Of a stretch of 64,000 nucleotides of DNA, positions 6,124 through 54,225 are shown in pieces. The stretch is from Patescibacteria group bacterium. Lineage in GTDB: Bacteria > Patescibacteriota > UBA1384 > UBA12157 > JAENIV01. The notes beneath the pieces are model-generated. The model worked only from the letters and a program-made list of their open reading frames with translations. It had not been told where the DNA came from and searched no databases. Position 1 is the first letter of the stretch; each line of letters begins with the position of its first letter. Both the position numbers and the translations under genes were made by a program. The stretch is taken from assembly GCA_041666185.1 (NCBI GenBank), contig JBAYHL010000004.1:105-64104 (forward strand). Reading direction: 5' to 3'.

Positions 6124-9100
6124 TTAATTATTTAATATTTCTCTTGTCTTTGGCCCAACTCGTCCAGCCCCACCTTGCGAAGTATCAATATTGTGATAAT
6201 TCTGATACTCAATCACCGCTTTTTGAGTTATGAAACCAAAATATCCTGTAACATAACGAGAGTCAAGAAACCCTTCACTTACTAGTCTTTCCTGAAGTTT
6301 AGTAACATAATAGCCAGAACTTTCAATGTCTAAATCATAAGGAAAATATACTTTATTAGAATCATCACAAGTTCCCTCAATAGCACAATTTGGGATTATT
6401 CCGTTTTCAATATCTTCATTTAAGGCTGCTCTTGTTCTTGGACCAAAGAAACCAGCTCCCCAATCCCACCAACTGGCAACTATTGCTTTTGACTTCTGAT
6501 ATAGGAATACTGCTTGTTTAGTAATACTGCCATAGAAACCAGTAGAATCTACCCAAAATGGAAAATAACCAAGATATCTTAAAACATTTTGCAAAATTCG
6601 AACATTTGCTTGGTTGTCCCCAGAAAAATAAGGCGCTTGATCGTTATTAAAACGAAATGAAGATTGTTGACCACTTTCTTGAGAAGAAGGACTAGTACTA
6701 GGAATTGGGGTAGGCGTAGGTTTTGAAGACTTACTACCATGACCTTGAGACAATGTTGTTTCTGAGCTAGATGGAGAAACTGCTGTTTCAATATTGTTGC
6801 CATTCCTAGCTTTAACTCTGTAAGCATAAGTTGTTGAGTGGACTAACCCAGTATTAGTTATACCAGTTGCTTCACCCCAAGTAGCGTAATCTTGCCAAAC
6901 GGCGGTATCACCATTACTACCATCAGCTTGGACATATTTACCTAAAGCTTCATTGGAAATAGCAAATTGAGTTGCTGCTGAATTGCCATTAACATTAATA
7001 ATTACCTTAAGCGAAGTGCTTGAAGATCGATTTACTGTTGACGCTAAAGGCACGTTAGCCAAAGTATAAGTTGAAGCGGCTGTACCAGAATGAGGAGATT
7101 GACCGGAATCATTATAAGAAACAACATAACGACCAGAATACTCCGTATTAACCGAAAGTCCAACCTCGTCACAAGAAGTTAAATCAACTCCTACACAAGT
7201 TGCCTTTAAAGTGTCTGTCGCATCATATACTTTAAAACCTACTTCATTTGGATTTACGTCAGTAAATTTCCAACGAATAGCAGCTACTGAAATTGCTTCT
7301 GGTGTGCCAATCGTTGGTGCATCTGGTGGGAAAAAATTCCAACCAGGATTATTGTTACCCGAATCAGTAACGTTATCTCCCGGGGTAATTCTAAAAGCAT
7401 TGTTTATATTTTGACTATCGGAAACATCAATATAATCGCCAGAAATCATATCGCCAGAAATAACAAAATACCAAGCCGTATCTGGCACTGAGCTACGAAG
7501 AGCCAAAACATTCCCAACAGAACCGTCTAAAGTCCATGTATCATTTATGGTCTGAGTTGCCCCCGCGGCAAAAGTAATAGTTTTAGCCCCATCAACTGAA
7601 GTATCCATAATTAAATTGTTGAAAGTCGTTGAGCCAGAAATTGCCGCAGCGTTGGTCGAATCAAAAGTAATAGTTTGTGTTCCAGGAGTTGTTCCAGCAG
7701 TAAATGAACCACCAGAAATATTCCAATTTTTAGCCATATTTATATTCAACCCATCAGCATTAAATACGCCATCTGAATTAGTAAAATTACCATCGATATT
7801 CAAAGCATTGGTAGAAAGTTGTAATGTGCCAGCGCCAGAGTGAGTTAAATTGTTGAATAACTTACCAATGCCTGTGCCACCCGAATCAAGAGTTTGAGTA
7901 CCAGAGGATTTAGTAAAATCCACTATGCCACTACCCGGAGTAAAAGTACCAGAATTTATCCAATTACCACCAACATTTATCGTACCGGAAGTAGCAAAGA
8001 GTATAGTATTTAAATTAATTGTTATATCACCATTTACTGTTAAAATATTTGAAGAAATATCTAGAGTATTAGGACCAATCGACAAAACATAAAGCGAAAG
8101 ATTGCCTTCCGCTACTGTTGTACCGGATAGACTATAAGTTACGCTCTGTTCTTCTGCTAGAGCAGCGGAGTTGTATAAATTTATATTATGATAAATATCA
8201 TTGGGTAAAATATTTGAACCGTAGGCATAATAAGCAAATGTTGCATTATTAGTCGTCCAGTCAACTGTACCACCATTATGAGTATAACTACCAAAAACTG
8301 AAAAACTTCCTACATTAACCTGACCACTGCCAGCTGTAAAAGTTCCATTTGTTACATTAAAAATTTTTCCAACGATCGAACCACTCCCACCAATCAAAAC
8401 TCCACCATTTATAGTAATAGTAGTCGCTGAAGATAGTATGGAAGCGCTGCCAAGACTAACTGTTCCTGTATTTAATGTGCCAGCGGTAACATTTAAATTC
8501 CTAATAGTAGTTAAATTACTAGTATTTAGAGTCCAACCACCACCAGCACCATTAACAGTTAAAGTATAGAAACCAGAAGCACCGCCATTGATTGTTTTCC
8601 CTGTTGCGCCGCCATCTAAAGTAACAGTTCTTGTTTCTTTATCAAAAGTCGCCGTGTTGCTCCATGACCCCGCAACGGTCATATCGCGACTATTAACATC
8701 AAAAGTACCAGCAGAGTTAGTGAAGTCACCATCAATGTTTATGTTATTAGTCAAAAGCTGCAAAATTCCAGCACCAGAGTGAGTAATGTTATTAAAAATT
8801 TTCCCTACGCCCGTACCACCAGAATCAAGAGTTTGAGTACCAGAGGATTTGGTAAAATTAACAGTAGAAGAACCAGAAACAAAAACACCACCAGCAGCAT
8901 TTGACCAATTACCACCGACTGCAATAGTAGACAATGAATCGCTTGCATCAAGAGTTCCATTAATGGTTACATTTACTGCTGTTAGATTATAATCAATTGT
9001 TGAAGGTCGTAGATCTAAAGTTGCATTAGCATTAACAGTCAAGTTGCCAGACATGGCTTTAGTGCCTGTAAGATTTCCTGTTAATGAGTAAGTTGTTGGA

Positions 9101-11529
9101 GTGGTTGGAGCAACAGTCAGGTTGTTGTAAGCATAAGTAATAATGTTTGTACTAGAACCAGTTCCCGTATAAGTGAAAGTTGAGTTAGTGCCTTTATTGA
9201 AAATAGCCACTGATATAGGACTTCCAGTTCCAGTTAAATTTAAATTATAACCACCACTTCCCATGTTAAAACTATAAACCATAACTCGGGTTGCTGTAAT
9301 ACTTGAGCCCAAAGTAATTGTAGCTAATCCAGAATCTAATGTTCCCAAATCATCAGCATTTGAAGAAGAATCTGTCAGAGTCGTTGTGCCATCAAAGTAA
9401 AATAAGCCAGAACCCCTTATAAATATAGCAGTACCGGTATTATTCCAGTGTCCGGCAAAATTCATGTTCAAATTATTGGAATCGAAAGTGCCAGCCGAGT
9501 TGGTAAAAATGCCATTAACATCAAGATTATTGGTTATAAGCTGAAGCGTTCCAGTTCCAGAATGAGTAAGATTATTAAAAAATTTTCCAGCATCTACACC
9601 ACCAGAGCTTAAGGTTTGAGTGCTAGAAGCTTTATTGAAAATAACTGTTGAAGTGTTAGCGGTGAAAGTACCTGAATTAGCCCAGTTTCCAGTACAGGTA
9701 ATAGTTGAAGCATTTGCTGTCAAAGTTCCAGCAATAGTAACGTTGCCAGTAACCGTAATATTTCTATTAGTCGTTCCATCATTAGTTGTTAGGGTGCCAG
9801 CGGTCACATCTAAATCACCATTAACCGTGGTTGTAGCAGTGGCTGGTAATCTGAATGTGCCACCCGTACCATTAATTTTTAAATTATAATATGTCCAATT
9901 TCTAATGTTTCTTGTACCAGAAGTGGCAGAATACTCAACCGTGCCGTGAGCTGTGTCATTTGTTAAGCTGACAGTTGTTTCGTCACCAGTTTGTTTTAAT
10001 GTGCCATTATTAGTAAAAACACCCGTAACAGTAAGATTGTGACCATTAATGTCTAATGTTTTACTTGCTCCTATAGTTAAAGTACCAGAAGCAGTAATAT
10101 CTGCTCCGGCAGTTAAACTTGTGCCATTCAAATTCATGACAGTGGATGTTGTTATTGTATTAGCACCTTGAGTAATGGCACCTATGTAAGCAGCTTGAAA
10201 ATCAAGCGTTGCAACATCAATAGCAGTATCAATTGTTAACGCGCCATTGTGAGCGCTGCCGGCATTGTCAAAAATGGCTGTATCTCCGGCTACTGGCACT
10301 GTTGCGCCACCCGTACCGCCAGATGTATCTGACCAGTTAGCAGTATCATTCCAATTGCCGCTTGTGTTATTAATCCAGTAGCGAGTAGCTGGGCCAGAAG
10401 AAGTTGCTATGCTATTGTCGAAATAAACATTGTAAGGACTAGCAGCACCGTTAGTCCAAGAAAGAAAAGCTTTGCTACCAGTCGTTTGATAACTTGCAGA
10501 AGGGCTAACATTGGTTCCTGTTCCATAAAGAGATGTGGCGGCGGCATCCCAATTGGCTAAAGCATAAGGAGAAACACCTTTTTTGTAATATATTGTATTC
10601 GTGTTTGCATAAAAAGCGTAAAGATCGCCAGACGCTGTATCTATAGTAATTGAAGGATGGGTAGCACTACCAGATTGAATTGTTACAGCACTCGACCATG
10701 TCCCGGAATATTTTGTGTAATAGATTGAACCGGAAGAAAGATATTCTAAATGAATATTGCCCGATGCATCTGATACTAAAGAATAGTCTGTGGTCGCGGT
10801 GCTGACCACAGTAGTTGCAGAAGCATCCCAACTAGAGCTAGCATTAGTATATTTTTTCCCAGCTAAAGTAGTTCCGCTAACCCAGGCTGCATATATATCT
10901 CCTCCTGTAAGAGGAACAATATTAACGCTAGTAAGGTCTGTGCTAAGAGTGTTAATAGCATCCCAAGCAGTTATGTCATTAACATTCGTTGATCTTCTGG
11001 CAAAAATTCCACTTGCTCCATAACCACCATCATCATAAGGCCAAGCCACCCATATTTTGTTGTTTGTATCCTGAGTAATAACGGGAGCACCAGTAATCGA
11101 ATATGCACCACTTGCTGTCACGGGAGAACCCCATGTAATAGAGGTAGCAGCGGCAGTGCCTTGTCTGACATTAAGAACGATCCCATTTGATGTTGCAAGA
11201 TATACAGTTGTGCCGTTGGCCCAAATTGAAAAATCAGAAGTATTTTCAGCAATTGTGCCTGTTCCATTCCATGTCACTCCATCAGTTGAGTATTTGTAAG
11301 CAATAGCCGAGCCATTATAATAAAACGACCAATAGGTAGAATTCGTGCTGTCATAAAAGCTCTTTCTATATTCGGCTCCAGTGGTGGCACTAGCGCTAGT
11401 TGATGTTCCAATCGTTACTGGCGCTGCGTAAGCAGTTTCATAAGGAGGACCAAAAATACCATAAACTATGGTAAATAATAAAAAAATTAGTAGAAAAAAT
11501 TTATAAATATTGCGTACCGGAATTATCAC
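6124..11529 (-). CDS. Giant (1801 aa) cell-wall-associated surface protein: Asp-box/BNR N-terminal region, long Thr/Ser/Asn/Gly-rich beta-helix-like repeats, FN3-like modules, two C-terminal peptidoglycan-binding domains
   Basis: Signal/TM at the N-terminus. The Asp-box motif is YSTDGVTW. A ~70-aa unit (FTKSSGTQTLDSGGTG.GK.FNN.THSGAG.LQL..N.) occurs three times. The C-terminus has PG_binding_1-like ...LQERLVSEGFLDSRYVTGYFGFITQKAVIEYQ and VLRYLGYFP...GSITKQAVFLYQ. It has a GTG start with an AAGGAGG RBS, ~80 nt downstream of 5S. Confidence 0.85.
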   Translation of the reverse strand: MIIPVRNIYKFFLLIFLLFTIVYGIFGPPYETAYAAPVTIGTSTSASATTGAEYRKSFYDSTNSTYWSFYYNGSAIAYKYSTDGVTWNGTGTIAENTSDFSIWANGTTVYLATSNGIVLNVRQGTAAATSITWGSPVTASGAYSITGAPVITQDTNNKIWVAWPYDDGGYGASGIFARRSTNVNDITAWDAINTLSTDLTSVNIVPLTGGDIYAAWVSGTTLAGKKYTNASSSWDASATTVVSTATTDYSLVSDASGNIHLEYLSSGSIYYTKYSGTWSSAVTIQSGSATHPSITIDTASGDLYAFYANTNTIYYKKGVSPYALANWDAAATSLYGTGTNVSPSASYQTTGSKAFLSWTNGAASPYNVYFDNSIATSSGPATRYWINNTSGNWNDTANWSDTSGGTGGATVPVAGDTAIFDNAGSAHNGALTIDTAIDVATLDFQAAYIGAITQGANTITTSTVMNLNGTSLTAGADITASGTLTIGASKTLDINGHNLTVTGVFTNNGTLKQTGDETTVSLTNDTAHGTVEYSATSGTRNIRNWTYYNLKINGTGGTFRLPATATTTVNGDLDVTAGTLTTNDGTTNRNITVTGNVTIAGTLTANASTITCTGNWANSGTFTANTSTVIFNKASSTQTLSSGGVDAGKFFNNLTHSGTGTLQLITNNLDVNGIFTNSAGTFDSNNLNMNFAGHWNNTGTAIFIRGSGLFYFDGTTTLTDSSSNADDLGTLDSGLATITLGSSITATRVMVYSFNMGSGGYNLNLTGTGSPISVAIFNKGTNSTFTYTGTGSSTNIITYAYNNLTVAPTTPTTYSLTGNLTGTKAMSGNLTVNANATLDLRPSTIDYNLTAVNVTINGTLDASDSLSTIAVGGNWSNAAGGVFVSGSSTVNFTKSSGTQTLDSGGTGVGKIFNNITHSGAGILQLLTNNINIDGDFTNSAGTFDVNSRDMTVAGSWSNTATFDKETRTVTLDGGATGKTINGGASGFYTLTVNGAGGGWTLNTSNLTTIRNLNVTAGTLNTGTVSLGSASILSSATTITINGGVLIGGSGSIVGKIFNVTNGTFTAGSGQVNVGSFSVFGSYTHNGGTVDWTTNNATFAYYAYGSNILPNDIYHNINLYNSAALAEEQSVTYSLSGTTVAEGNLSLYVLSIGPNTLDISSNILTVNGDITINLNTILFATSGTINVGGNWINSGTFTPGSGIVDFTKSSGTQTLDSGGTGIGKLFNNLTHSGAGTLQLSTNALNIDGNFTNSDGVFNADGLNINMAKNWNISGGSFTAGTTPGTQTITFDSTNAAAISGSTTFNNLIMDTSVDGAKTITFAAGATQTINDTWTLDGSVGNVLALRSSVPDTAWYFVISGDMISGDYIDVSDSQNINNAFRITPGDNVTDSGNNNPGWNFFPPDAPTIGTPEAISVAAIRWKFTDVNPNEVGFKVYDATDTLKATCVGVDLTSCDEVGLSVNTEYSGRYVVSYNDSGQSPHSGTAASTYTLANVPLASTVNRSSSTSLKVIINVNGNSAATQFAISNEALGKYVQADGSNGDTAVWQDYATWGEATGITNTGLVHSTTYAYRVKARNGNNIETAVSPSSSETTLSQGHGSKSSKPTPTPIPSTSPSSQESGQQSSFRFNNDQAPYFSGDNQANVRILQNVLRYLGYFPFWVDSTGFYGSITKQAVFLYQKSKAIVASWWDWGAGFFGPRTRAALNEDIENGIIPNCAIEGTCDDSNKVYFPYDLDIESSGYYVTKLQERLVSEGFLDSRYVTGYFGFITQKAVIEYQNYHNIDTSQGGAGRVGPKTREILNN
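7700..9640 (-). repeat. Three intragenic coding repeats (~210 nt each, at ~7700-7925, ~8650-8860 and ~9430-9640) inside the giant surface-protein gene
   Basis: A 29-nt stretch gaatcaagagtttgagtaccagaggattt is identical at 7883-7911 and 8822-8850. The third copy, at 9604-9633, has diverged. The antisense ORFs at 7616-7843 and 8588-8782 both end in ...SC.(I/V)PAPE, mirroring the repeat. Confidence 0.8.
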
Positions 11530-11621: not shown

Positions 11622-11743
11622 AGTGCTGGCGTCGATCTACTTTCCCGGGACCTTGCGGTCCGAGTATCATCGACGCTATGGTGCTTAACTTCTCTGTTCG
11701 GAATGGAAAGAGGTGTACCCACCACGCTAAAACACCAGCACTT
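11622..11743 (-). rRNA. rrf: 5S ribosomal RNA
   Basis: The reverse complement reads AGUGCUGGUG...CCGAACAGAGAAGUUAAGC...CGCCAGCACU, with helix I ends pairing and the conserved CCGAAC...GAAGUUAAGC loop. Confidence 0.85.
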
Positions 11744-11865
11744 AAATTGCGAAGGATTATATTAACTTACAACTTACAATCACCAACTACAACAAGTTGT
11801 AGATTGTTTGTTGTGAATTATTAGTTATTTTTCATCAGTACCTTAGTAGTTGTTTCGTCAAAAAA

Positions 11866-14780
<2,915 letters not shown>

Positions 14781-25159: not shown

Positions 25160-26622
<1,463 letters not shown>

Positions 26623-44844: not shown

Positions 44845-44927
44845 ATATTTATTTTACCCAGATTTTTTATATTTAATTTAGCGGATATATTGTAACAAAA
44901 AGTTTCAGATAAATCCAGTCATGTCTC

Positions 44928-45564: not shown

Positions 45565-47520
45565 TTAAAACCTTAATTTTTTAAGTTGAACTATTTCGTC
45601 ACGCAAAATGGCTGCTTGTTCAAATTCTAAATTCTTGGCAGCTTTTTTCATTTCACTTTCTTTAAAACGTAAGATTCTTGGTAAATCTTCCAAGTTTTCA
45701 ATTTTTACATATTCTCGCGGAATTTCTGGTTTGAGTTCATGATCGATAATACTTTCAATAGATTTTTGAATCGTTTTAGGAGTAATATGATGTTTTTTAT
45801 TATAAGCAGTTTGAATTTTTCTGCGTCTTTCAGTTTCAAAAATTGCTCGCTCCATTGAACCAGTAATATTGTCAGCATATAAAATAACTTTACCGGAGAC
45901 ATTTCTCGCTGCCCGACCTATTGTTTGAACTAAAGAAACTTCACTACGCAAAAAACCTTCTTTGTCGGCATCTAGTATTGCTACCAATGTTACCTCCGGC
46001 AAATCTAAACCTTCACGAAGTAAATTTACGCCCACCAAACAATCAATTTTGCCACGTCGTAAATTTTCTAAAATTCCTACTCTGTCTAAAGTGTCAACTT
46101 CACTATGAATATATTCTGATTTTATTTTACTTTCTTTTAAATGCTCTGATAAATCTTCAGCCATTCGTTTAGTAAGAGCGGTTACTAATATTCTTTCATT
46201 TTTAGCGGCCCTGATTTTGATTTCCGAAATTAAATCGTCAATTTGATTCTGCGTTGGTCTAATTTCTAACTCAGGGTCAACTAGACCAGTTGGGCGAATA
46301 ATTTGCTCAACAAACCCTCTAGAATGTTCGTGTTCATATAAGGACGGTGTCGCGGTTGTAAATATTACTTGATTAACTTTTTCTTCAAATTCAGGAAATT
46401 TCAAAGGACGATTATCGTAAGCGCTAGGTAACCGAAAACCATTTTTAACCAAAGCGTCCTTTCTTGATTTATCGCCAGCAAACATACCTCTAATTTGAGG
46501 GATGGTTACATGAGACTCGTCAATTACCATCAAAAAATCTTCAGGAAAAAAATCTAACAAAGTATACGGTGCTTGGCCCGGACTACGACCAGTTAAGTAC
46601 CGCGAGTAGTTTTCAATTCCCGAACAATAACCAACCTCTCTTAACATTTCTAAATCAAAGTCTGTTCTGCGACGCAATCTTTCTGCTTCTAAAACTTGGC
46701 CTTTGCTTTCAAAATATTTCAATCTTTCTTCCAGCTCTTTTTGGATACCATTGAATGATTTTTCAAGTTCTGCCCCTTCAACAACAAAATGTTTTGCCGG
46801 ATAAATAGTTATTTCTGACCTTTCGGAAATTTTCTTCATTGTTAAGTTTTCAAAAATAGTAATCGCAAAAACTAAATCTTGATCAAACTCGATCCTTATA
46901 ATTACTTCTTGATCTATCGGCATAATTTCTAAAGTAGACCCATGTAAACGAAATCTTCCTCTTTCCAAAATTTCACTGCGAGTAAAATAAAGTCCAACTA
47001 AACGCTTGGTAACTTCTGTAAGTTTTAGATTTTCACCTTTACGAAAATTCAAAAACGATTGGGCGTAAACTTCGGGGCTTCCTAAACCATAAATACAAGA
47101 AACCGAGGCAACGATTATCACATCTTTCCGTGTCAGAAGAGCCTGAGTAGCCGCATGACGAAGTCTTTCGATTTCTTTATTTATCTCAACTTCTTTTTCA
47201 ATATAAACATCGCTTGTTTCAAGATAAGCTTCCGGTTGGTAGTAATCGTAATAAGAAACAAAATATTCAACGGCGTTTTCAGGAAAAAAAGTTCTAAATT
47301 CTTGTGTTAGCTGCGCCGCTAAAGTTTTGTTATGAGCAACGACTAAGGTTGGCTTTTGAACATTTTTAATCACGTTGGCAATTGTAAAAGTTTTCCCAGA
47401 ACCAGTCACACCTAAAAGGGTCTGATATTTCAGGCCATCGTTTAACCCCTTCGACAACTTAGCGATTGCTTTTGTTTGATCACCAGCTGGTTTAAATTTT
47501 GAATTAATCTTAAATTCCAT
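45565..47520 (-). CDS. uvrB: Excinuclease ABC subunit B
   Basis: 651 aa with a Walker A GVTGSGKT, helicase motifs, and a C-terminal UVR domain (...EFEQAAILRDEIVQLKK). Confidence 0.95.
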   Translation of the reverse strand: MEFKINSKFKPAGDQTKAIAKLSKGLNDGLKYQTLLGVTGSGKTFTIANVIKNVQKPTLVVAHNKTLAAQLTQEFRTFFPENAVEYFVSYYDYYQPEAYLETSDVYIEKEVEINKEIERLRHAATQALLTRKDVIIVASVSCIYGLGSPEVYAQSFLNFRKGENLKLTEVTKRLVGLYFTRSEILERGRFRLHGSTLEIMPIDQEVIIRIEFDQDLVFAITIFENLTMKKISERSEITIYPAKHFVVEGAELEKSFNGIQKELEERLKYFESKGQVLEAERLRRRTDFDLEMLREVGYCSGIENYSRYLTGRSPGQAPYTLLDFFPEDFLMVIDESHVTIPQIRGMFAGDKSRKDALVKNGFRLPSAYDNRPLKFPEFEEKVNQVIFTTATPSLYEHEHSRGFVEQIIRPTGLVDPELEIRPTQNQIDDLISEIKIRAAKNERILVTALTKRMAEDLSEHLKESKIKSEYIHSEVDTLDRVGILENLRRGKIDCLVGVNLLREGLDLPEVTLVAILDADKEGFLRSEVSLVQTIGRAARNVSGKVILYADNITGSMERAIFETERRRKIQTAYNKKHHITPKTIQKSIESIIDHELKPEIPREYVKIENLEDLPRILRFKESEMKKAAKNLEFEQAAILRDEIVQLKKLRF

Positions 47521-47616
47521 CCAGTGTATATTAACATATTTTTTTTAAATACAAAATCCCTCCGCGGAAATCGTTGGAGGGATTTTGATAATTTTTTTGA
47601 TAAGAAACCTAAGTGA

Positions 47617-47775
47617 TTACTCTGCTACTTCTTCATCATCATCGTCTTCTGAATCACTATCCATTTCTTCTTCACCATCTTCTCCTGGTTCTTCCATTGT
47701 CATGTCATCATCAGTTTCTTCTTCAGTAGCATCGTCTGTTTGATCAGCGGCTACATCTTGTGTTGGATCGTCCAT
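47617..47775 (-). CDS. Unannotated hyper-acidic small protein (52 aa)
   Basis: The minus-strand ATG at 47775 sits 5 nt after an AAGAGGAGG RBS. The product is MDDPTQDVAADQTDDATEEETDDDMTMEEPGEDGEEEMDSDSEDDDDEEVAE, with a TAA stop. It is absent from the ORF track because it is under 60 aa. Confidence 0.5.
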   Translation of the reverse strand: MDDPTQDVAADQTDDATEEETDDDMTMEEPGEDGEEEMDSDSEDDDDEEVAE

Positions 47776-47828
47776 GTGCCTCCTCTTGCTCGACCAATCT
47801 GCTAGACACAGATTGCCGAGAAATTACT

Positions 47829-49073
47829 TTACTTTTCATCATTATCAAAAATATCAATTATTTTGTCAATATCAACAAGATTTGACTCTTCTTGATCCCT
47901 CTTTTTAAATTCGATTTTTTTGTCTTCTAAAGTTTTGGCGCTTAAAACTAATCTATAGGGAGCTCCTAATAAATCGGCATCGGAAAATTTTACTCCCGCA
48001 GAAACTTCTCTATCATCAAAAAGAACTCCAATCCCAGCTTTTACTAATCCGTCATAAACTTTTTCACCTTGCGAACCTTCTAAATCAATCAAATAAACAT
48101 CAAAAGGAGCAACTTCTTTCGGCCAAACCATTTTGTTTTTCGAAACATCAAAAAACATTTCAACTAATGACGCCAAACATCTGGTTATACCAATACCGTA
48201 CGACCCCATAACAATATCTTTTTCTTGGCCATTTTCGTCAACAAAAACCGCTCCCATTGATTTCGAATATTTTGTTTTTAATTTAAAAATATTACCAACT
48301 TCAATACCGTTATCCTTGGCAATTTTACCGTCACATTTTGGGCAATTATCACCTTCTTCCACCTTAGCTATTTCTTTATTTTGAGCAAAATCACATTTTG
48401 TACAATAAAAAACCGTGTCTTCGCCAGCTGGCGCTAAAACTTGAAATTCATGAGAATATTCTTTGCCAAAAGGTCCGCCAGAGGCTTCAACTATTTTTAC
48501 CGGCATTTCAAGCCGAGCGAAAATTTTTAAATACGCTTTTTTAACAATTTCGTAAAACTGATTTAAATCTTCTTCGTCTTGATGAAAACTATACAAATCT
48601 TTCATCAAAAATTCGCGACCACGAAGCAATCCGGACTTCGCTCGAGGTTCATTGCGAAATTTAGTTTGAATTTGATAAAGATATTGGGGTAAATCCTTAT
48701 AAGAGTGAATTTTGTGCCGGACAATACTTGTTAACTGCTCTTCATGGGTTGGACTAAGAGCCAATTCTTTATCTCTTGCGTCTTTAAAAGCGTACAAAAT
48801 ATCTTTCATCTCTTGCCAACGACCAGTTTCTTCCCAAAGCTCTTTAGGGGAAAGAACATTCATCAATATTTCTTGAGAATCAATAGTGTTCATTTCCTCA
48901 CGAATAATATTTTCAATTTTTTGATAAACCTTAAAACCAAGAGGCAAGAGAGCATAAACACCCGCCATTTGTTTTTCCACAAATGAAGCTCTCTCTAAAT
49001 AAGAAGCATTAATTGAGTCTGAGTCCGATGGGGTTTCTTTTTGAGTTTTAATAAATGATTTTGAGTATCTCAT
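47829..49073 (-). CDS. proS: Prolyl-tRNA synthetase, short form without the editing (INS) domain
   Basis: Class II motifs (...LSPTHEE, FRNEPRAKSGLLRGREFLMKDLYSF) and a Zn-binding C-terminal region (CTKCDFA...CPKCDG). It is 414 aa. Confidence 0.85.
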   Translation of the reverse strand: MRYSKSFIKTQKETPSDSDSINASYLERASFVEKQMAGVYALLPLGFKVYQKIENIIREEMNTIDSQEILMNVLSPKELWEETGRWQEMKDILYAFKDARDKELALSPTHEEQLTSIVRHKIHSYKDLPQYLYQIQTKFRNEPRAKSGLLRGREFLMKDLYSFHQDEEDLNQFYEIVKKAYLKIFARLEMPVKIVEASGGPFGKEYSHEFQVLAPAGEDTVFYCTKCDFAQNKEIAKVEEGDNCPKCDGKIAKDNGIEVGNIFKLKTKYSKSMGAVFVDENGQEKDIVMGSYGIGITRCLASLVEMFFDVSKNKMVWPKEVAPFDVYLIDLEGSQGEKVYDGLVKAGIGVLFDDREVSAGVKFSDADLLGAPYRLVLSAKTLEDKKIEFKKRDQEESNLVDIDKIIDIFDNDEK

Positions 49074-53027: not shown

Positions 53028-53276
53028 ATGAAAAAAGATATACACCCTAAATATTTCGAAAACACTAAAGTTACCTGTTCTTGCGGTAACTCATTTGAGG
53101 TAGGCTCAACTGTACCAGAGATTCATGTTGAAGTCTGCTCAGCTTGCCATCCATTCTATACCGGAACAGCTAAATTTATTGATACTGCTGGTCGCGTAGA
53201 CAAATTCCAAGAGAAAGTTAAAATTGCCGAAGCAATGCGACAAGCCAGTCAGAAAAAAGATAAGAAAGAAAAATAA
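53028..53276 (+). CDS. rpmE: 50S ribosomal protein L31
   Basis: MKKDIHPKY...CSCGN...[10 protein letters not shown]: the zinc-ribbon (type A) L31 signature. Confidence 0.9.
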
Positions 53277-53340
53277 GACAGTTAAAAATTAAGAACTCAA
53301 TTACTCAGTTATATTAACTGTCTTAATTATCTTAAATATT

Positions 53341-54225
53341 ATGAATGACGATCACTTATTAAAACAACTTCAGGAAGCTGAAGAGCTCTACAAAACCAGT
53401 GACGACCCTAGTATTCGTGAACTCGCTAAAAGAGAAATTGAAAGTTTACAAAACAGGGTTTTTATTGGTAACCAAACTGATAAAAATCTAATTTTAGAAA
53501 TACGAGCCGGTACTGGCGGACAAGAAGCTGAGCTTTTTGCTAGCGAACTTTTTAGAATGTATCAAAAGTTCGCCGAAAGAAGCGGTTGGCAAATTAGTGT
53601 TCTAAACTCTAACAGAACACCCCTTGGTGGAGTAAGAGAAATTATTGCTGAAATAAAAGGTGATAAATCTTTCCAAATGCTACAATACGAATCAGGTGTT
53701 CACAGGGTTCAACGAGTACCAAAAACTGAAAAATCGGGTCGTTTACACACATCGGCGGCAACTGTCGCTGTCCTTCCAGAAGTAGAGGAAACGGAAATTC
53801 AAATAAATCCCCAAGATTTGAGAGTTGATGTTTATCATGCTCAAGGACATGGCGGTCAAGGTGTTAACACGACCGACTCAGCCGTTCGTATCACCCATTT
53901 ACCAACAGGTCTAGTTGTCACCTGCCAAGATGAACGCTCGCAAATTAAAAATCGCGCTAAAGCCTTAGGCGTCCTTCGCTCAAGACTCTACGAAATTGAA
54001 GAAGAAAAGAAGAGAAAAGAACAAGGAACGAAGCGTCAATCACAAATTGGCAGCGGGGACAGAAGTGAAAAAATTAGAACTTATAATTTTCCTCAAGATA
54101 GAATTACTGATCATCGAATCAAGAAATCTTGGAGCAAAATTTCTCAAATTCTTGATGGCGACTTAGAGCCGATTATTAAAGCTTTACAAAAAGCCGATCT
54201 AGAACTCAAACTTCAAGAAAATTAA
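53341..54225 (+). CDS. prfA: Peptide chain release factor 1 (short N-terminus)
   Basis: GGQ motif ([21 protein letters not shown]) and an RF1-type PxT tripeptide (RVPKTE). 294 aa. Confidence 0.85.

What the first reader, a model, noticed from the sequence alone, without database searches (positions are those of the whole stretch)
47617..47775. Unannotated 52-aa hyper-acidic protein with a near-perfect RBS between uvrB and proS
The minus-strand ORF encodes MDDPTQDVAADQTDDATEEETDDDMTMEEPGEDGEEEMDSDSEDDDDEEVAE. About 60% of its residues are Asp or Glu and none is basic. Its ATG sits 5 nt after AAGAGGAGG. This composition is typical of DNA-mimic proteins (anti-restriction Ocr/ArdA-like or uracil-DNA-glycosylase-inhibitor-like proteins) or of acidic chaperone or ribosome-associated tails. 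Its position next to nucleotide-excision-repair genes makes a DNA-mimic role worth testing. It is missing from the ORF track only because it is under 60 aa.
Basis: seen in the sequence. Interest (0 to 1): 0.55.

Follow-up and report, generated by a model that had tools for sequence, protein, structure and literature searches.

The report
Conserved hyper-acidic disordered mini-protein gene
A real 52-codon gene in a Berkelbacteria-like (candidate phyla radiation) bacterium encodes a structureless, extremely negatively charged mini-protein that sits next to proS (usually between proS and uvrB) in at least 14 related lineages; its function is untested, and the best guess is that it imitates nucleic acid by charge.

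Summary
Window 47617-47775 (-) is a 52-codon ORF with 29 D/E residues (56%), no K/R/H and a net charge of about -29. AAGAGGAGG ends 3 nt before the ATG, not 5.

It looks like a self-contained transcription unit:
- a promoter-like TTGACA-17-GATAAT inside the proS 3' end
- a 5'UTR hairpin
- one of the few full GGAGG sites in the window
- a 12-bp terminator-type hairpin after the stop

Fourteen distinct orthologues (39-126 aa) lie just downstream of proS. Thirteen are also followed by uvrB, in Berkelbacteria-type CPR genomes. All keep GGAGG 3-5 nt before the ATG and almost no basic residues. All end in Glu (chance about 2e-6). Only this frame is open in the 11 orthologues tested. pN/pS is 0.14-0.26 in two close pairs.

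No match was found in Pfam, NCBIfam, PHROGs, PADLOC, PDB sequences or 1.84 billion protein representatives. AlphaFold predicts no structure.

So this is a real, conserved, intrinsically disordered polyanion. It is not an Ocr/ArdA/Ugi-type folded DNA mimic. It most likely acts as an electrostatic nucleic-acid mimic or chaperone for basic proteins, but this is inference. The link to excision repair is positional only. The gene's divergence is oddly decoupled from that of its flanks.

The parts
47841..47869 (-). Promoter-like site TTGACA-17 nt-GATAAT (11 of 12 consensus positions), inside the last codons of proS
   Evidence: scan; coordinates. The same TTGACA-17/18-GAnAAT arrangement lies upstream of most orthologues. 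Function as a promoter is inferred, not shown.
47789..47820 (-). 5'UTR stem-loop CTCGGCAATCTG...CAGATTGGTCGAG just upstream of the ribosome-binding site
   Evidence: -16.2 kcal/mol, z = -2.7 against shuffles. Several orthologues have a non-homologous hairpin at the same place. A role in mRNA stabilisation is inferred.
47779..47787 (-). Shine-Dalgarno sequence AAGAGGAGG, 3 nt before the ATG
   Evidence: GGAGG lies 3-5 nt before the ATG in all 14 orthologues. Only 6 of 42 window genes have a full GGAGG.
47617..47775 (-). Coding sequence of the 52-aa hyper-acidic protein (stop codon included)
   Evidence: It is the only frame open in all 11 orthologues tested. pN/pS is 0.14-0.26 in two close orthologue pairs. 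A gene with exactly this product is called in 3 other assemblies.
47546..47587 (-). Intrinsic-terminator-like hairpin (12-bp stem AAAAUCCCUCC...GGAGGGAUUUU), then GUAUUU
   Evidence: -19.3 kcal/mol, z = -4.3, 0 of 200 shuffles fold as well. The simple scan missed it, probably because the loop exceeds 8 nt. A G+C-rich hairpin with a T-run follows the stop in every orthologue.
47829..49073 (-). proS (prolyl-tRNA synthetase, 414 aa), upstream neighbour and last gene of the rpsB-tsf-frr-rseP-proS row
   Evidence: tRNA-synt_2b plus HGTP_anticodon.
45565..47520 (-). uvrB, downstream neighbour. It has its own extended -10-like TGTTAATAT (47528-47536) 7 nt before the ATG and no Shine-Dalgarno site
   Evidence: UvrB domains; upstream sequence. 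Separate transcription and leaderless translation are inferred.

Best explanation
This is a genuine single-gene unit with signals for strong expression, specific to Berkelbacteria-type CPR bacteria. It encodes an intrinsically disordered polyanion of 5.8 kDa with a net charge of about -29.

The sequence between the two ends drifts quickly. Selection keeps five things: an open frame, strong negative charge, the near-absence of basic and hydrophobic residues, a loosely conserved start (Met, a variable residue, then mostly Asp/Gln/Glu/Asn at positions 3-4) and an invariant C-terminal Glu.

Most likely mechanism (inferred, not shown): the chain behaves like a short piece of single-stranded nucleic acid. 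It would bind the basic nucleic-acid-binding surfaces of cellular proteins through charge. Candidates include nucleoid proteins, RNA polymerase, ribosomal proteins and UvrA/UvrB. Binding would either chaperone them or compete them off non-specific DNA or RNA. The conserved termini would supply whatever specificity exists.

Approximate confidence by step: real translated gene 0.9, disordered polyanion 0.85, charge-mimic or chaperone mechanism 0.35.
For: Gene signals in the window:
- Promoter-like TTGACA-17-GATAAT.
- 5'UTR hairpin and terminator-type hairpin with z = -4.3.
- One of only 6 of 42 window genes with a full GGAGG.

Conservation:
- There are 14 distinct orthologues directly downstream of proS on the same strand. 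Thirteen of them are followed by uvrB.
- All have GGAGG 3-5 nt before the ATG. Eleven of 14 have TTGACA with 10-11 of 12 promoter positions.
- A six-frame scan of 558 kb of related loci found no other such acidic stretch, apart from G+C-rich frames with no gene features in L058.

Coding evidence:
- The frame has 0 stops in all 11 orthologues tested. No other frame is open in all of them.
- For L097 vs L100, pN/pS is 0.26 in this frame, about 1.0-1.4 in the four unlinked frames and 0.34 in the mirrored antisense frame.
- For L102 vs L104, pN/pS is 0.14.

Protein properties:
- D+E is 31-69%, K+R+H is 0-6 residues, and net charge is -13 to -37 across lengths of 39-126 aa.
- C-terminal Glu is present in 14 of 14, with P about 2e-6 from composition.
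- AlphaFold2 gives no secondary structure, pLDDT 64 and pTM 0.13.

Mechanistic precedent:
- SPO1 Gp44 residues 56-122 are 57% D/E with no K/R/H, are disordered, interact with RNA polymerase beta and beta' and are described as an ssDNA mimic (PMC8208478).
- D/E repeats modulate DNA target search electrostatically (PMC10250230).
- Prothymosin-alpha binds linker histone H1 through charge (my own knowledge).
Against: - There is no direct evidence of transcription, translation or any binding partner.
- The mechanism is argued from composition and analogy only.
- No homology to any characterised protein was found.
- The known disordered acidic mimics are segments of larger proteins. This one stands alone.
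- The AlphaFold run used a single sequence, so the disorder call rests mainly on composition.
- Promoter and terminator are consensus or folding matches, not mapped transcript ends.
- Charge alone does not obviously explain the invariant C-terminal Glu or the decoupled evolutionary rates.
Confidence: 0.4

Rival explanations
1. It is a repair-specific DNA mimic. The polyanion binds UvrA and/or UvrB and tunes their loading on undamaged DNA.
For: - The ORF lies upstream of uvrB in 13 of 14 carriers, and directly upstream with no gene between in 11 of these.
- Relatives with uvrC right after proS (confirmed by Pfam in L002, L017, L025, L030 and L031) lack the ORF, uvrB and uvrA together at this locus. 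The ORF is never left behind next to proS.
- The window carries the whole uvrB...uvrA...uvrC set downstream.
Against: - The ORF has its own promoter-like site and terminator-type hairpin, and uvrB has its own -10-like element.
- An opposite-strand gene separates ORF and uvrB in L001, a LytB-family gene in L027, and a 450-650-nt non-coding stretch in L097, L100, L102 and L103.
- More distant CPR uvrB loci lack the ORF (L101).
- No acidic partner of UvrAB is known (my own knowledge).
- I could not examine where uvrB sits in the non-carrier genomes.
Confidence: 0.17
2. It is a general physico-chemical protectant or ion buffer. As an abundant polyanion it would buffer Mg2+, Ca2+ or polyamines, or keep other proteins soluble under stress, like hydrophilin, Hero or poly-D/E proteins.
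For: - Strong expression signals.
- Composition and net charge are conserved while the sequence is not.
- In the complete Berkelbacteria genome CP011213.1, three small genes with faint KGG-repeat Pfam hits and a fourth of similar size lie just after uvrB in the same cluster. The KGG family is stress-associated (my own knowledge).
Against: - A bulk role does not explain the invariant C-terminal Glu.
- It does not explain the fixed chromosomal position.
- There is no expression or stress data.
Confidence: 0.15
3. It is a conjugated or C-terminally processed tag. This would be a small disordered modifier like Pup or UBact, or a substrate of a ligase acting on the terminal Glu.
For: - It is small and disordered.
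- C-terminal Glu is invariant in 14 of 14 although the rest drifts.
- Pup is ligated through its C-terminal Glu (my own knowledge).
Against: - There is no Gly-Gly before the terminal residue.
- No PafA, Dop, Mpa or proteasome family appears among the window's proteins.
- Pup carries basic and hydrophobic residues for binding Mpa and PafA (my own knowledge). This protein has almost none.
Confidence: 0.05
4. The functional product is not the protein. The ORF would be a leader peptide or attenuator for uvrB, or the GA-rich transcript would act as an RNA.
For: - A terminator-type hairpin lies between the ORF and uvrB.
- The transcript is purine-rich.
- The 5'UTR is more conserved than the ORF in the L097/L100 pair.
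Against: - Substitutions are frame-specific.
- ORF lengths of 39-126 codons are long and variable for a leader peptide.
- No alternative antiterminator pairing appears in the fold.
- uvrB is not adjacent in several relatives.
- No Rfam family matches here.
Confidence: 0.05
5. It is an anti-restriction or anti-defence protein of the folded DNA-mimic type (Ocr, ArdA or Ugi-like), or a spurious ORF.
For: High acidity is the only shared feature.
Against: - No match in Pfam, PHROGs, PADLOC or PDB sequences.
- No predicted fold.
- The context is housekeeping genes.
- Conservation and purifying selection exclude a spurious ORF.
Confidence: 0.03

Closest known systems
Disordered acidic segment (residues 56-122) of Bacillus phage SPO1 Gp44
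   Same: - About 57% D/E and no K/R/H over roughly 50-70 residues.
- Predicted or measured disorder.
- Proposed to act as a flexible ssDNA mimic (PMC8208478, compared).
   Different: - Gp44's segment is embedded between a folded DNA-binding N-terminal domain and a C-terminal region of a 27-kDa phage host-takeover protein. This protein stands alone, is chromosomal and is vertically conserved.
- No sequence relationship was found.
- The binding target here is unknown.
Prothymosin-alpha and other eukaryotic poly-D/E disordered proteins (own knowledge; D/E-repeat regions, PMC10250230)
   Same: - Free-standing or tail-like polyanion, roughly half D/E.
- No aromatic residues.
- Acts through charge on basic DNA-binding proteins.
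- Charge is conserved more than sequence.
   Different: - These are eukaryotic and about twice as long, with some basic residues and a nuclear localisation signal.
- No homology is claimed.
- I know of no bacterial counterpart, and the literature searches found none.
C-terminal acidic domain of the RNA polymerase delta subunit (RpoE) of Firmicutes (own knowledge)
   Same: - Long disordered D/E-rich polyanion in a bacterial cell.
- Thought to mimic nucleic acid and displace it from a basic protein surface.
   Different: - Delta's tail is tethered to a folded N-terminal domain that docks on RNA polymerase. No such domain is present here.
- No Pfam match.
Ocr, ArdA and Ugi folded DNA-mimic proteins
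   Same: Net negative charge and the general idea of imitating DNA phosphates.
   Different: - These are folded with a fixed charge array, are phage- or plasmid-borne, and are larger (own knowledge).
- This protein has no profile match, no predicted fold and a housekeeping context.
Pup / UBact prokaryotic ubiquitin-like tags (own knowledge)
   Same: - Small, disordered and acidic.
- The only strictly conserved position is the C-terminal residue (Glu or Gln in Pup, Glu here).
   Different: - There is no GG[EQ] motif.
- No ligase or proteasome genes lie in the 64-kb window.
- It is far more acidic and lacks the helix-forming binding region.

Membership tests
Ocr / ArdA / Ugi-type folded DNA mimics | Sequence or profile membership in the family | tested here: not met
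   No family matched for the window protein, and none matched for the 10 other orthologues of alignment A3 except one weak DUF4512 hit (E = 0.4) in one member. Libraries: Pfam, NCBIfam, PHROGs, PADLOC. The profile against PDB sequences gave 0 hits at E <= 10.
Ocr / ArdA / Ugi-type folded DNA mimics | Stable fold that displays carboxylates in a DNA-like array | tested here: not met
   AlphaFold2 on a single sequence gave no helices or strands, mean pLDDT 64 and pTM 0.13. Only 2 of 52 residues are I/L/V/F/W/C. This is a prediction only.
Ocr / ArdA / Ugi-type folded DNA mimics | Encoded by a phage, plasmid or other mobile element | tested here: not met
   The gene lies between proS and uvrB, after the rpsB-tsf-frr-rseP-proS row. 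The position is syntenic across 14 lineages.
Ocr / ArdA / Ugi-type folded DNA mimics | Inhibits a type I restriction enzyme or uracil-DNA glycosylase | not testable with these tools
   This needs biochemistry.
Disordered polyanionic ssDNA mimic (SPO1 Gp44 56-122 type) | At least 50% D/E and no basic residue over at least 50 residues; disordered | tested here: met
   56% D/E and 0 K/R/H over 52 aa; no predicted structure. Gp44 56-122 is 57% D/E with no K/R/H (PMC8208478).
Disordered polyanionic ssDNA mimic (SPO1 Gp44 56-122 type) | Homology to Gp44, with flanking folded DNA-binding domain and C-terminal region | tested here: not met
   No PHROG match. The protein consists of the acidic chain only.
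Disordered polyanionic ssDNA mimic (SPO1 Gp44 56-122 type) | Binds RNA polymerase or another nucleic-acid-binding protein | not testable with these tools
   This needs pull-down or two-hybrid experiments.
Pup / UBact tags | C-terminal Gly-Gly-Gln/Glu (Pup) or Arg-Ser/Thr-Gly-Glu/Gln (UBact) | tested here: not met
   All 14 orthologues end in Glu, but the preceding residues are VA, TE, NT, VV, MP, PA, LP, DE, AE, DT, PE, AV and AA (ETE, not TE, for L094). None has Gly-Gly.
Pup / UBact tags | Neighbouring PafA/Dop ligase, Mpa ATPase and proteasome genes | tested here: not met
   None is among the window's proteins scanned with Pfam. The rest of the genome was not available.
Leader-peptide transcription attenuator (for uvrB) | Short ORF whose translation chooses between terminator and antiterminator directly upstream of the regulated gene | tested here: not met
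   - Folding shows only the terminator-type hairpin and no alternative pairing.
- uvrB has its own -10-like element after it.
- Another gene or a long non-coding stretch separates ORF and uvrB in L001, L027, L097, L100, L102 and L103.
- ORF length is 39-126 codons.
Berkelbacteria proS-uvrB acidic mini-protein family (defined here) | Position just downstream of proS on the same strand; GGAGG 3-5 nt before the ATG; hairpin with T-run after the stop; 31-69% D/E and at most 6 basic residues; C-terminal Glu | tested here: met
   The window gene meets every point, as do the 13 other orthologues.

The most novel reading that the evidence does not exclude
Berkelbacteria-type CPR bacteria carry a stand-alone, strongly expressed, fully disordered polyanion that works as a cellular nucleic-acid mimic, a bacterial counterpart of prothymosin-alpha. 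Its invariant C-terminal Glu and its N-terminus dock it to a specific basic partner, possibly UvrA/UvrB or a nucleoid or RNA-polymerase component. Its alleles are exchanged between lineages, which would explain why its divergence is decoupled from that of its flanks.
Probability: 0.2. Interest if true: 0.7.

Novelty: new variant of a known kind. Interest (0 to 1): 0.45.

Why it matters
Free-standing proteins that are essentially pure negative charge are well studied in eukaryotes, for example prothymosin-alpha. In phages they occur as segments of host-takeover proteins. I found no description of one as a conserved chromosomal gene of bacteria.

CPR bacteria have tiny genomes of under 1 Mb. A gene kept at one locus with strong expression signals across a whole lineage is therefore unlikely to be dispensable.

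If the product modulates DNA- or RNA-binding proteins by charge competition, it would add a simple regulatory principle to bacterial nucleoid, transcription or repair biology. It would also give a tractable 5.8-kDa model system.

There is a practical lesson too. Such genes are missed by length cut-offs and by composition filters (all homology tools returned nothing). They would also be missed by trypsin-based proteomics, because the protein has no K or R.

Tried and rejected
Searches that found nothing:
- Word-indexed search of 5.8 billion proteins with the 52-aa query: no hit.
- phmmer against 1.84 billion representatives: 0 hits, probably because of the composition-bias filter.
- Exact-sequence look-up: the 52-aa and several short orthologues are not in the protein collection.
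- Pfam, NCBIfam, PHROGs, PADLOC and PDB sequences: nothing.
- Rfam: nothing at the locus.
- Literature searches for hyperacidic bacterial small proteins, Berkelbacteria acidic proteins and UBact: no description of this family. One search failed on syntax.

Ideas rejected:
- Diversity-generating retroelement targeting. I considered it because L100 has bAvd and Lcl_C genes nearby and the ORF is a divergence hot spot. The L097/L100 differences are mostly ordinary transitions (35 of 48) and are not adenine-specific.
- The antisense Ser/Leu-rich ORFs (for example + strand 47585-47743). They are by-products of GAN-rich sequence, none is open in all orthologues, and the frame statistics favour the sense frame.
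- A monophyletic origin by ProS tree. The tree is star-like, and carriers are interspersed with non-carriers. ProS itself has a discordant history.
- A programmed frameshift in the short release-factor gene at 53341. There is none; the upstream ORF looks like an L31-type ribosomal protein.

Not attempted: fold search, because the model has no fold.

Full report

Yes. Window 47617-47775 (minus strand) is an ATG-to-TAA ORF of 52 codons, translating exactly as quoted.
- It has 16 Asp and 13 Glu, which is 56% rather than about 60%. It has no Lys, Arg or His and no aromatic residue. Only two residues are I/L/V/F/W/C (both are Val). Net charge is about -29.
- AAGAGGAGG (47787-47779) is followed by CAC and the ATG, so the spacer is 3 nt, not 5.
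- The neighbours are ProRS (47829-49073) and UvrB (45565-47520), on the same strand.
- In 100 Markov simulations of the window, no frame produced a 30-residue stretch with 15 or more D/E. The simulated maximum was 11 and the observed value is 20. The window holds no second such stretch.

**2. Anatomy in the window**

The ORF has the signals of its own transcription unit.
- A TTGACA-17-GATAAT promoter-like site (11 of 12 positions) lies at 47869-47841, inside the last codons of proS.
- A 5'UTR stem-loop lies at 47820-47789 (-16.2 kcal/mol, z = -2.7).
- After the stop there is a 12-bp hairpin, AAAAUCCCUCC...GGAGGGAUUUU, followed by GUAUUU at 47587-47546 (-19.3 kcal/mol, z = -4.3, 0 of 200 shuffles as stable). 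The simple terminator scan missed it, probably because its loop exceeds 8 nt.
- Only 6 of 42 genes in the window have a full GGAGG near the start, and this ORF is one of them.
- uvrB follows 96 nt later with its own TGTTAATAT element 7 nt before the ATG and no Shine-Dalgarno site.
- Promoter, terminator and transcript limits are inferred from sequence, not measured.

**3. Organism and context**

- The 16S gene (25165-26619) lies about 10 kb from the 23S-5S pair (11624-14768).
- The ProRS and UvrB sequences are 100% identical to those of an NCBI metagenome-assembled 'Patescibacteria group bacterium' on a 64,784-bp contig. Their nearest named relatives are Candidatus Berkelbacteria.
- The gene row on the minus strand is rpsB, tsf, frr, rseP, proS, the ORF, uvrB, uvrA, uvrC.
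- No Pup ligase, proteasome, phage or plasmid genes appear among the window's proteins.

**4. Conservation**

Direct protein searches found nothing, so I used synteny.
- I fetched loci around ProRS relatives and UvrB relatives.
- These gave 14 distinct orthologues: the window (identical in L011-L013), L001, L015, L016, L027, L094, L095/L096, L097, L098, L099 (the complete Berkelbacteria genome CP011213.1), L100, L102, L103 and L104.
- Every one lies directly downstream of proS on the same strand. Thirteen are followed by uvrB. L015's contig ends too soon to tell.
- Every one has GGAGG 3-5 nt before the ATG. Eleven of 14 have TTGACA with 10-11 of 12 promoter positions. All have a G+C-rich hairpin plus a T-run right after the stop.
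- A six-frame scan of 558 kb of related loci found no other acidic stretch of this kind, apart from G+C-rich frames with no gene features in L058.
- Relatives of similar ProRS distance that lack the ORF also lack uvrB at this locus. Many have uvrC immediately after proS, and five of these were confirmed by Pfam. The more distant Paceibacterota uvrB locus L101 has no such ORF.

**5. Is it translated?**

The evidence is indirect but consistent.
- The acidic frame has no stop in any of the 11 orthologues tested. Frame +3 has 3-14 stops, and no other frame is open in all of them.
- In the near-identical pair L097/L100, pS is 0.50 and pN is 0.13 in this frame (pN/pS 0.26). The four unlinked frames give about 1.0-1.4. 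The codon-mirrored antisense frame gives 0.34.
- In L102/L104, pN/pS is 0.14.
- Public gene callers predict the exact 52-aa product in three other assemblies.
- Longer orthologues are in GenBank as 'hypothetical protein', or misnamed 'Plexin repeat family protein' (KKQ17975.1, KKQ74202.1).

**6. What is conserved in the protein?**

- Length ranges from 39 to 126 aa, and aligned pairwise identity is only about 24-86%.
- Composition is kept: D+E 31-69%, K+R+H 0-6 residues, 0-1 aromatic residue, net charge -13 to -37. This holds even in the G+C-richer L098, where Ala, Gly and Pro replace part of the acid.
- The N-terminus is loosely conserved: Met, a variable residue, then mostly Asp/Gln/Glu/Asn at positions 3-4.
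- All 14 end in Glu. The chance value is about 2e-6, even using each protein's local Glu frequency and dropping one of each close pair.
- AlphaFold2 on a single sequence predicts no secondary structure (pLDDT 64, pTM 0.13).
- The product is therefore best described as an intrinsically disordered polyanion with constrained ends.

**7. An unexplained evolutionary pattern**

The ORF's divergence is decoupled from that of its flanks.
- L097 vs L100: proS and uvrB have dS 0.14-0.19 and 97% protein identity, and the 62-nt 5'UTR is 97% identical. The ORF has dS 0.82 and 74% identity.
- L102 vs L104 shows the reverse: the flanks are saturated (dS 1.7-2.0; ProRS 72% and UvrB 83% identical), but the ORF has dS 0.65 and 86% identity.
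- The L097/L100 differences are mostly transitions and are not adenine-specific, so a nearby diversity-generating retroelement is not the cause.
- Exchange of alleles by recombination, or unusual mutability of the polypurine tract, are possible explanations. Neither was tested.

**8. Function**

No tool gave a homologue of known function, so the mechanism has to be argued from anatomy.
- A chain with 56% carboxylates, no basic residue and almost no hydrophobic residue cannot fold by itself. It resembles single-stranded nucleic acid in charge density and flexibility.
- The closest documented case is residues 56-122 of phage SPO1 Gp44. That segment is 57% D/E with no K/R/H, is disordered, interacts with RNA polymerase beta and beta', and is described as an ssDNA mimic (PMC8208478).
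- D/E repeats also tune DNA target search electrostatically (PMC10250230).
- Prothymosin-alpha and the acidic tail of the Firmicute RNA polymerase delta subunit are further analogues (my own knowledge).
- My best explanation (about 0.35-0.4) is an abundant charge-based mimic or chaperone for basic nucleic-acid-binding proteins, with the conserved termini giving specificity.

Rivals:
- **Repair-specific role (about 0.17).** The ORF is present or absent together with uvrB and uvrA at this locus. Against it are the ORF's separate promoter-like site and terminator-type hairpin, and intervening genes or a long non-coding stretch in six relatives.
- **Bulk protectant or cation buffer (about 0.15).** This fits the composition but not the invariant C-terminal Glu.
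- **Pup-like tag (about 0.05).** This fits the terminal Glu, but the Gly-Gly motif and the ligase and proteasome genes are missing.
- **Leader peptide or non-coding RNA (about 0.05), and folded anti-restriction mimic or spurious ORF (about 0.03).** These are disfavoured by the tests above.

**9. Comparison and novelty**

- The protein works like the known disordered polyanionic mimics, if it works as proposed.
- It is not a member of Ocr, ArdA, Ugi, Gp44, Pup or delta. The defining features that could be tested were not met (see the membership table).
- The family has no Pfam or NCBIfam model, and I found no literature on it.
- I classify it as a new variant of a known kind: a stand-alone, chromosomal, lineage-conserved version of an acidic disordered mimic.

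**10. Verdict**

Interest is moderate (0.45). The finding is well supported as a gene and has some odd features, but its function is unknown.

Noticed in passing
L097:3340-4000, L100:2540-3000, L102:2380-3000, L103:2400-3000: Between the acidic ORF's terminator and uvrB, these relatives carry a 450-650-nt conserved non-coding stretch. In L097, L100 and L103 it has its own TTGACA-N17-TATAAT promoter-like site; L102 has a weaker match. It starts at ...GAATTAGAGATGAGGAAAG and ends at ...CTCATCCCTGATTCTTAAGA, and these two ends are complementary. L097 has a 200-nt insertion relative to L100. L097 and L100 gave no Rfam match at gathering score; L102 and L103 were not scanned. This is a candidate large non-coding RNA. 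The window lacks it at this site.
   Followed up: partly
L097 vs L100 and L102 vs L104 (acidic ORF and flanks): The ORF's synonymous and non-synonymous divergence is decoupled from its flanks. It is 4-9 times higher than proS and uvrB in one pair and clearly lower than the flanks in the other. This suggests allele exchange or a mutational hot spot. The cause is unexplained.
   Followed up: partly
window 47518-47536 (uvrB) and 44845-44866 (uvrA upstream): uvrB and uvrA have no Shine-Dalgarno sequence. Instead an extended -10-like element sits 6-7 nt before the ATG: TGTTAATAT for uvrB and TGGGTAAAAT for uvrA. The same holds for uvrB in several relatives. The mRNAs are apparently leaderless.
   Followed up: no
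window 11624-14768 and 25165-26619: The rRNA genes are unlinked. The 23S-5S pair and the 16S gene lie about 10 kb apart on the same strand, with protein genes and two tRNAs between them. The ORF listed at 13850-14296 lies inside the 23S gene and is spurious.
   Followed up: no
Loci L002, L014, L017-L019, L021-L023, L025, L026, L028, L030, L031: Related CPR genomes lack the ORF and uvrB at this locus, and many have uvrC directly after proS. The block ORF-uvrB-uvrA is therefore present or absent as a unit at this locus. UvrC was confirmed by Pfam in L002, L017, L025, L030 and L031.
   Followed up: partly
ProRS of the window, L094, L095, L097-L100, L102-L104: ProRS identities fall into discrete groups of 62-97% within a group and about 46-55% between groups. 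UvrB from the same loci stays at 69-97% identity. proS therefore has a history discordant with uvrB, although the junction gene is kept.
   Followed up: no
L099:5092-5990 (CP011213.1) and L100:5323-7018: In the complete Berkelbacteria genome, three small genes with faint KGG-repeat Pfam hits and a fourth of similar size lie between uvrB and uvrA. In L100, an Lcl_C-domain gene and a bAvd gene (parts of a diversity-generating retroelement) follow uvrB.
   Followed up: no
window 6124-11529 (-): A 1801-aa ORF whose only Pfam match is a C-terminal peptidoglycan-binding domain (PG_binding_1). It is a typical giant CPR surface-type protein of unknown function.
   Followed up: no
GenBank KKQ17975.1 and KKQ74202.1 (orthologues of the ORF; L095): The Berkelbacteria GW2011 orthologues are named 'Plexin repeat family protein', which looks like a composition-driven misannotation. 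The 88-aa gene call also starts 12 codons too early and overlaps proS. The start with a GGAGG in front gives 76 aa.
   Followed up: partly
window 53029-53277 (+) and 53341-54225 (+): An 82-aa ORF that looks like ribosomal protein L31 (not scanned against Pfam) precedes a short, 294-aa class-I release factor whose PCRF match starts at profile position 48. There is no CTTTGAC frameshift site, so it is not a frameshifted prfB.
   Followed up: yes
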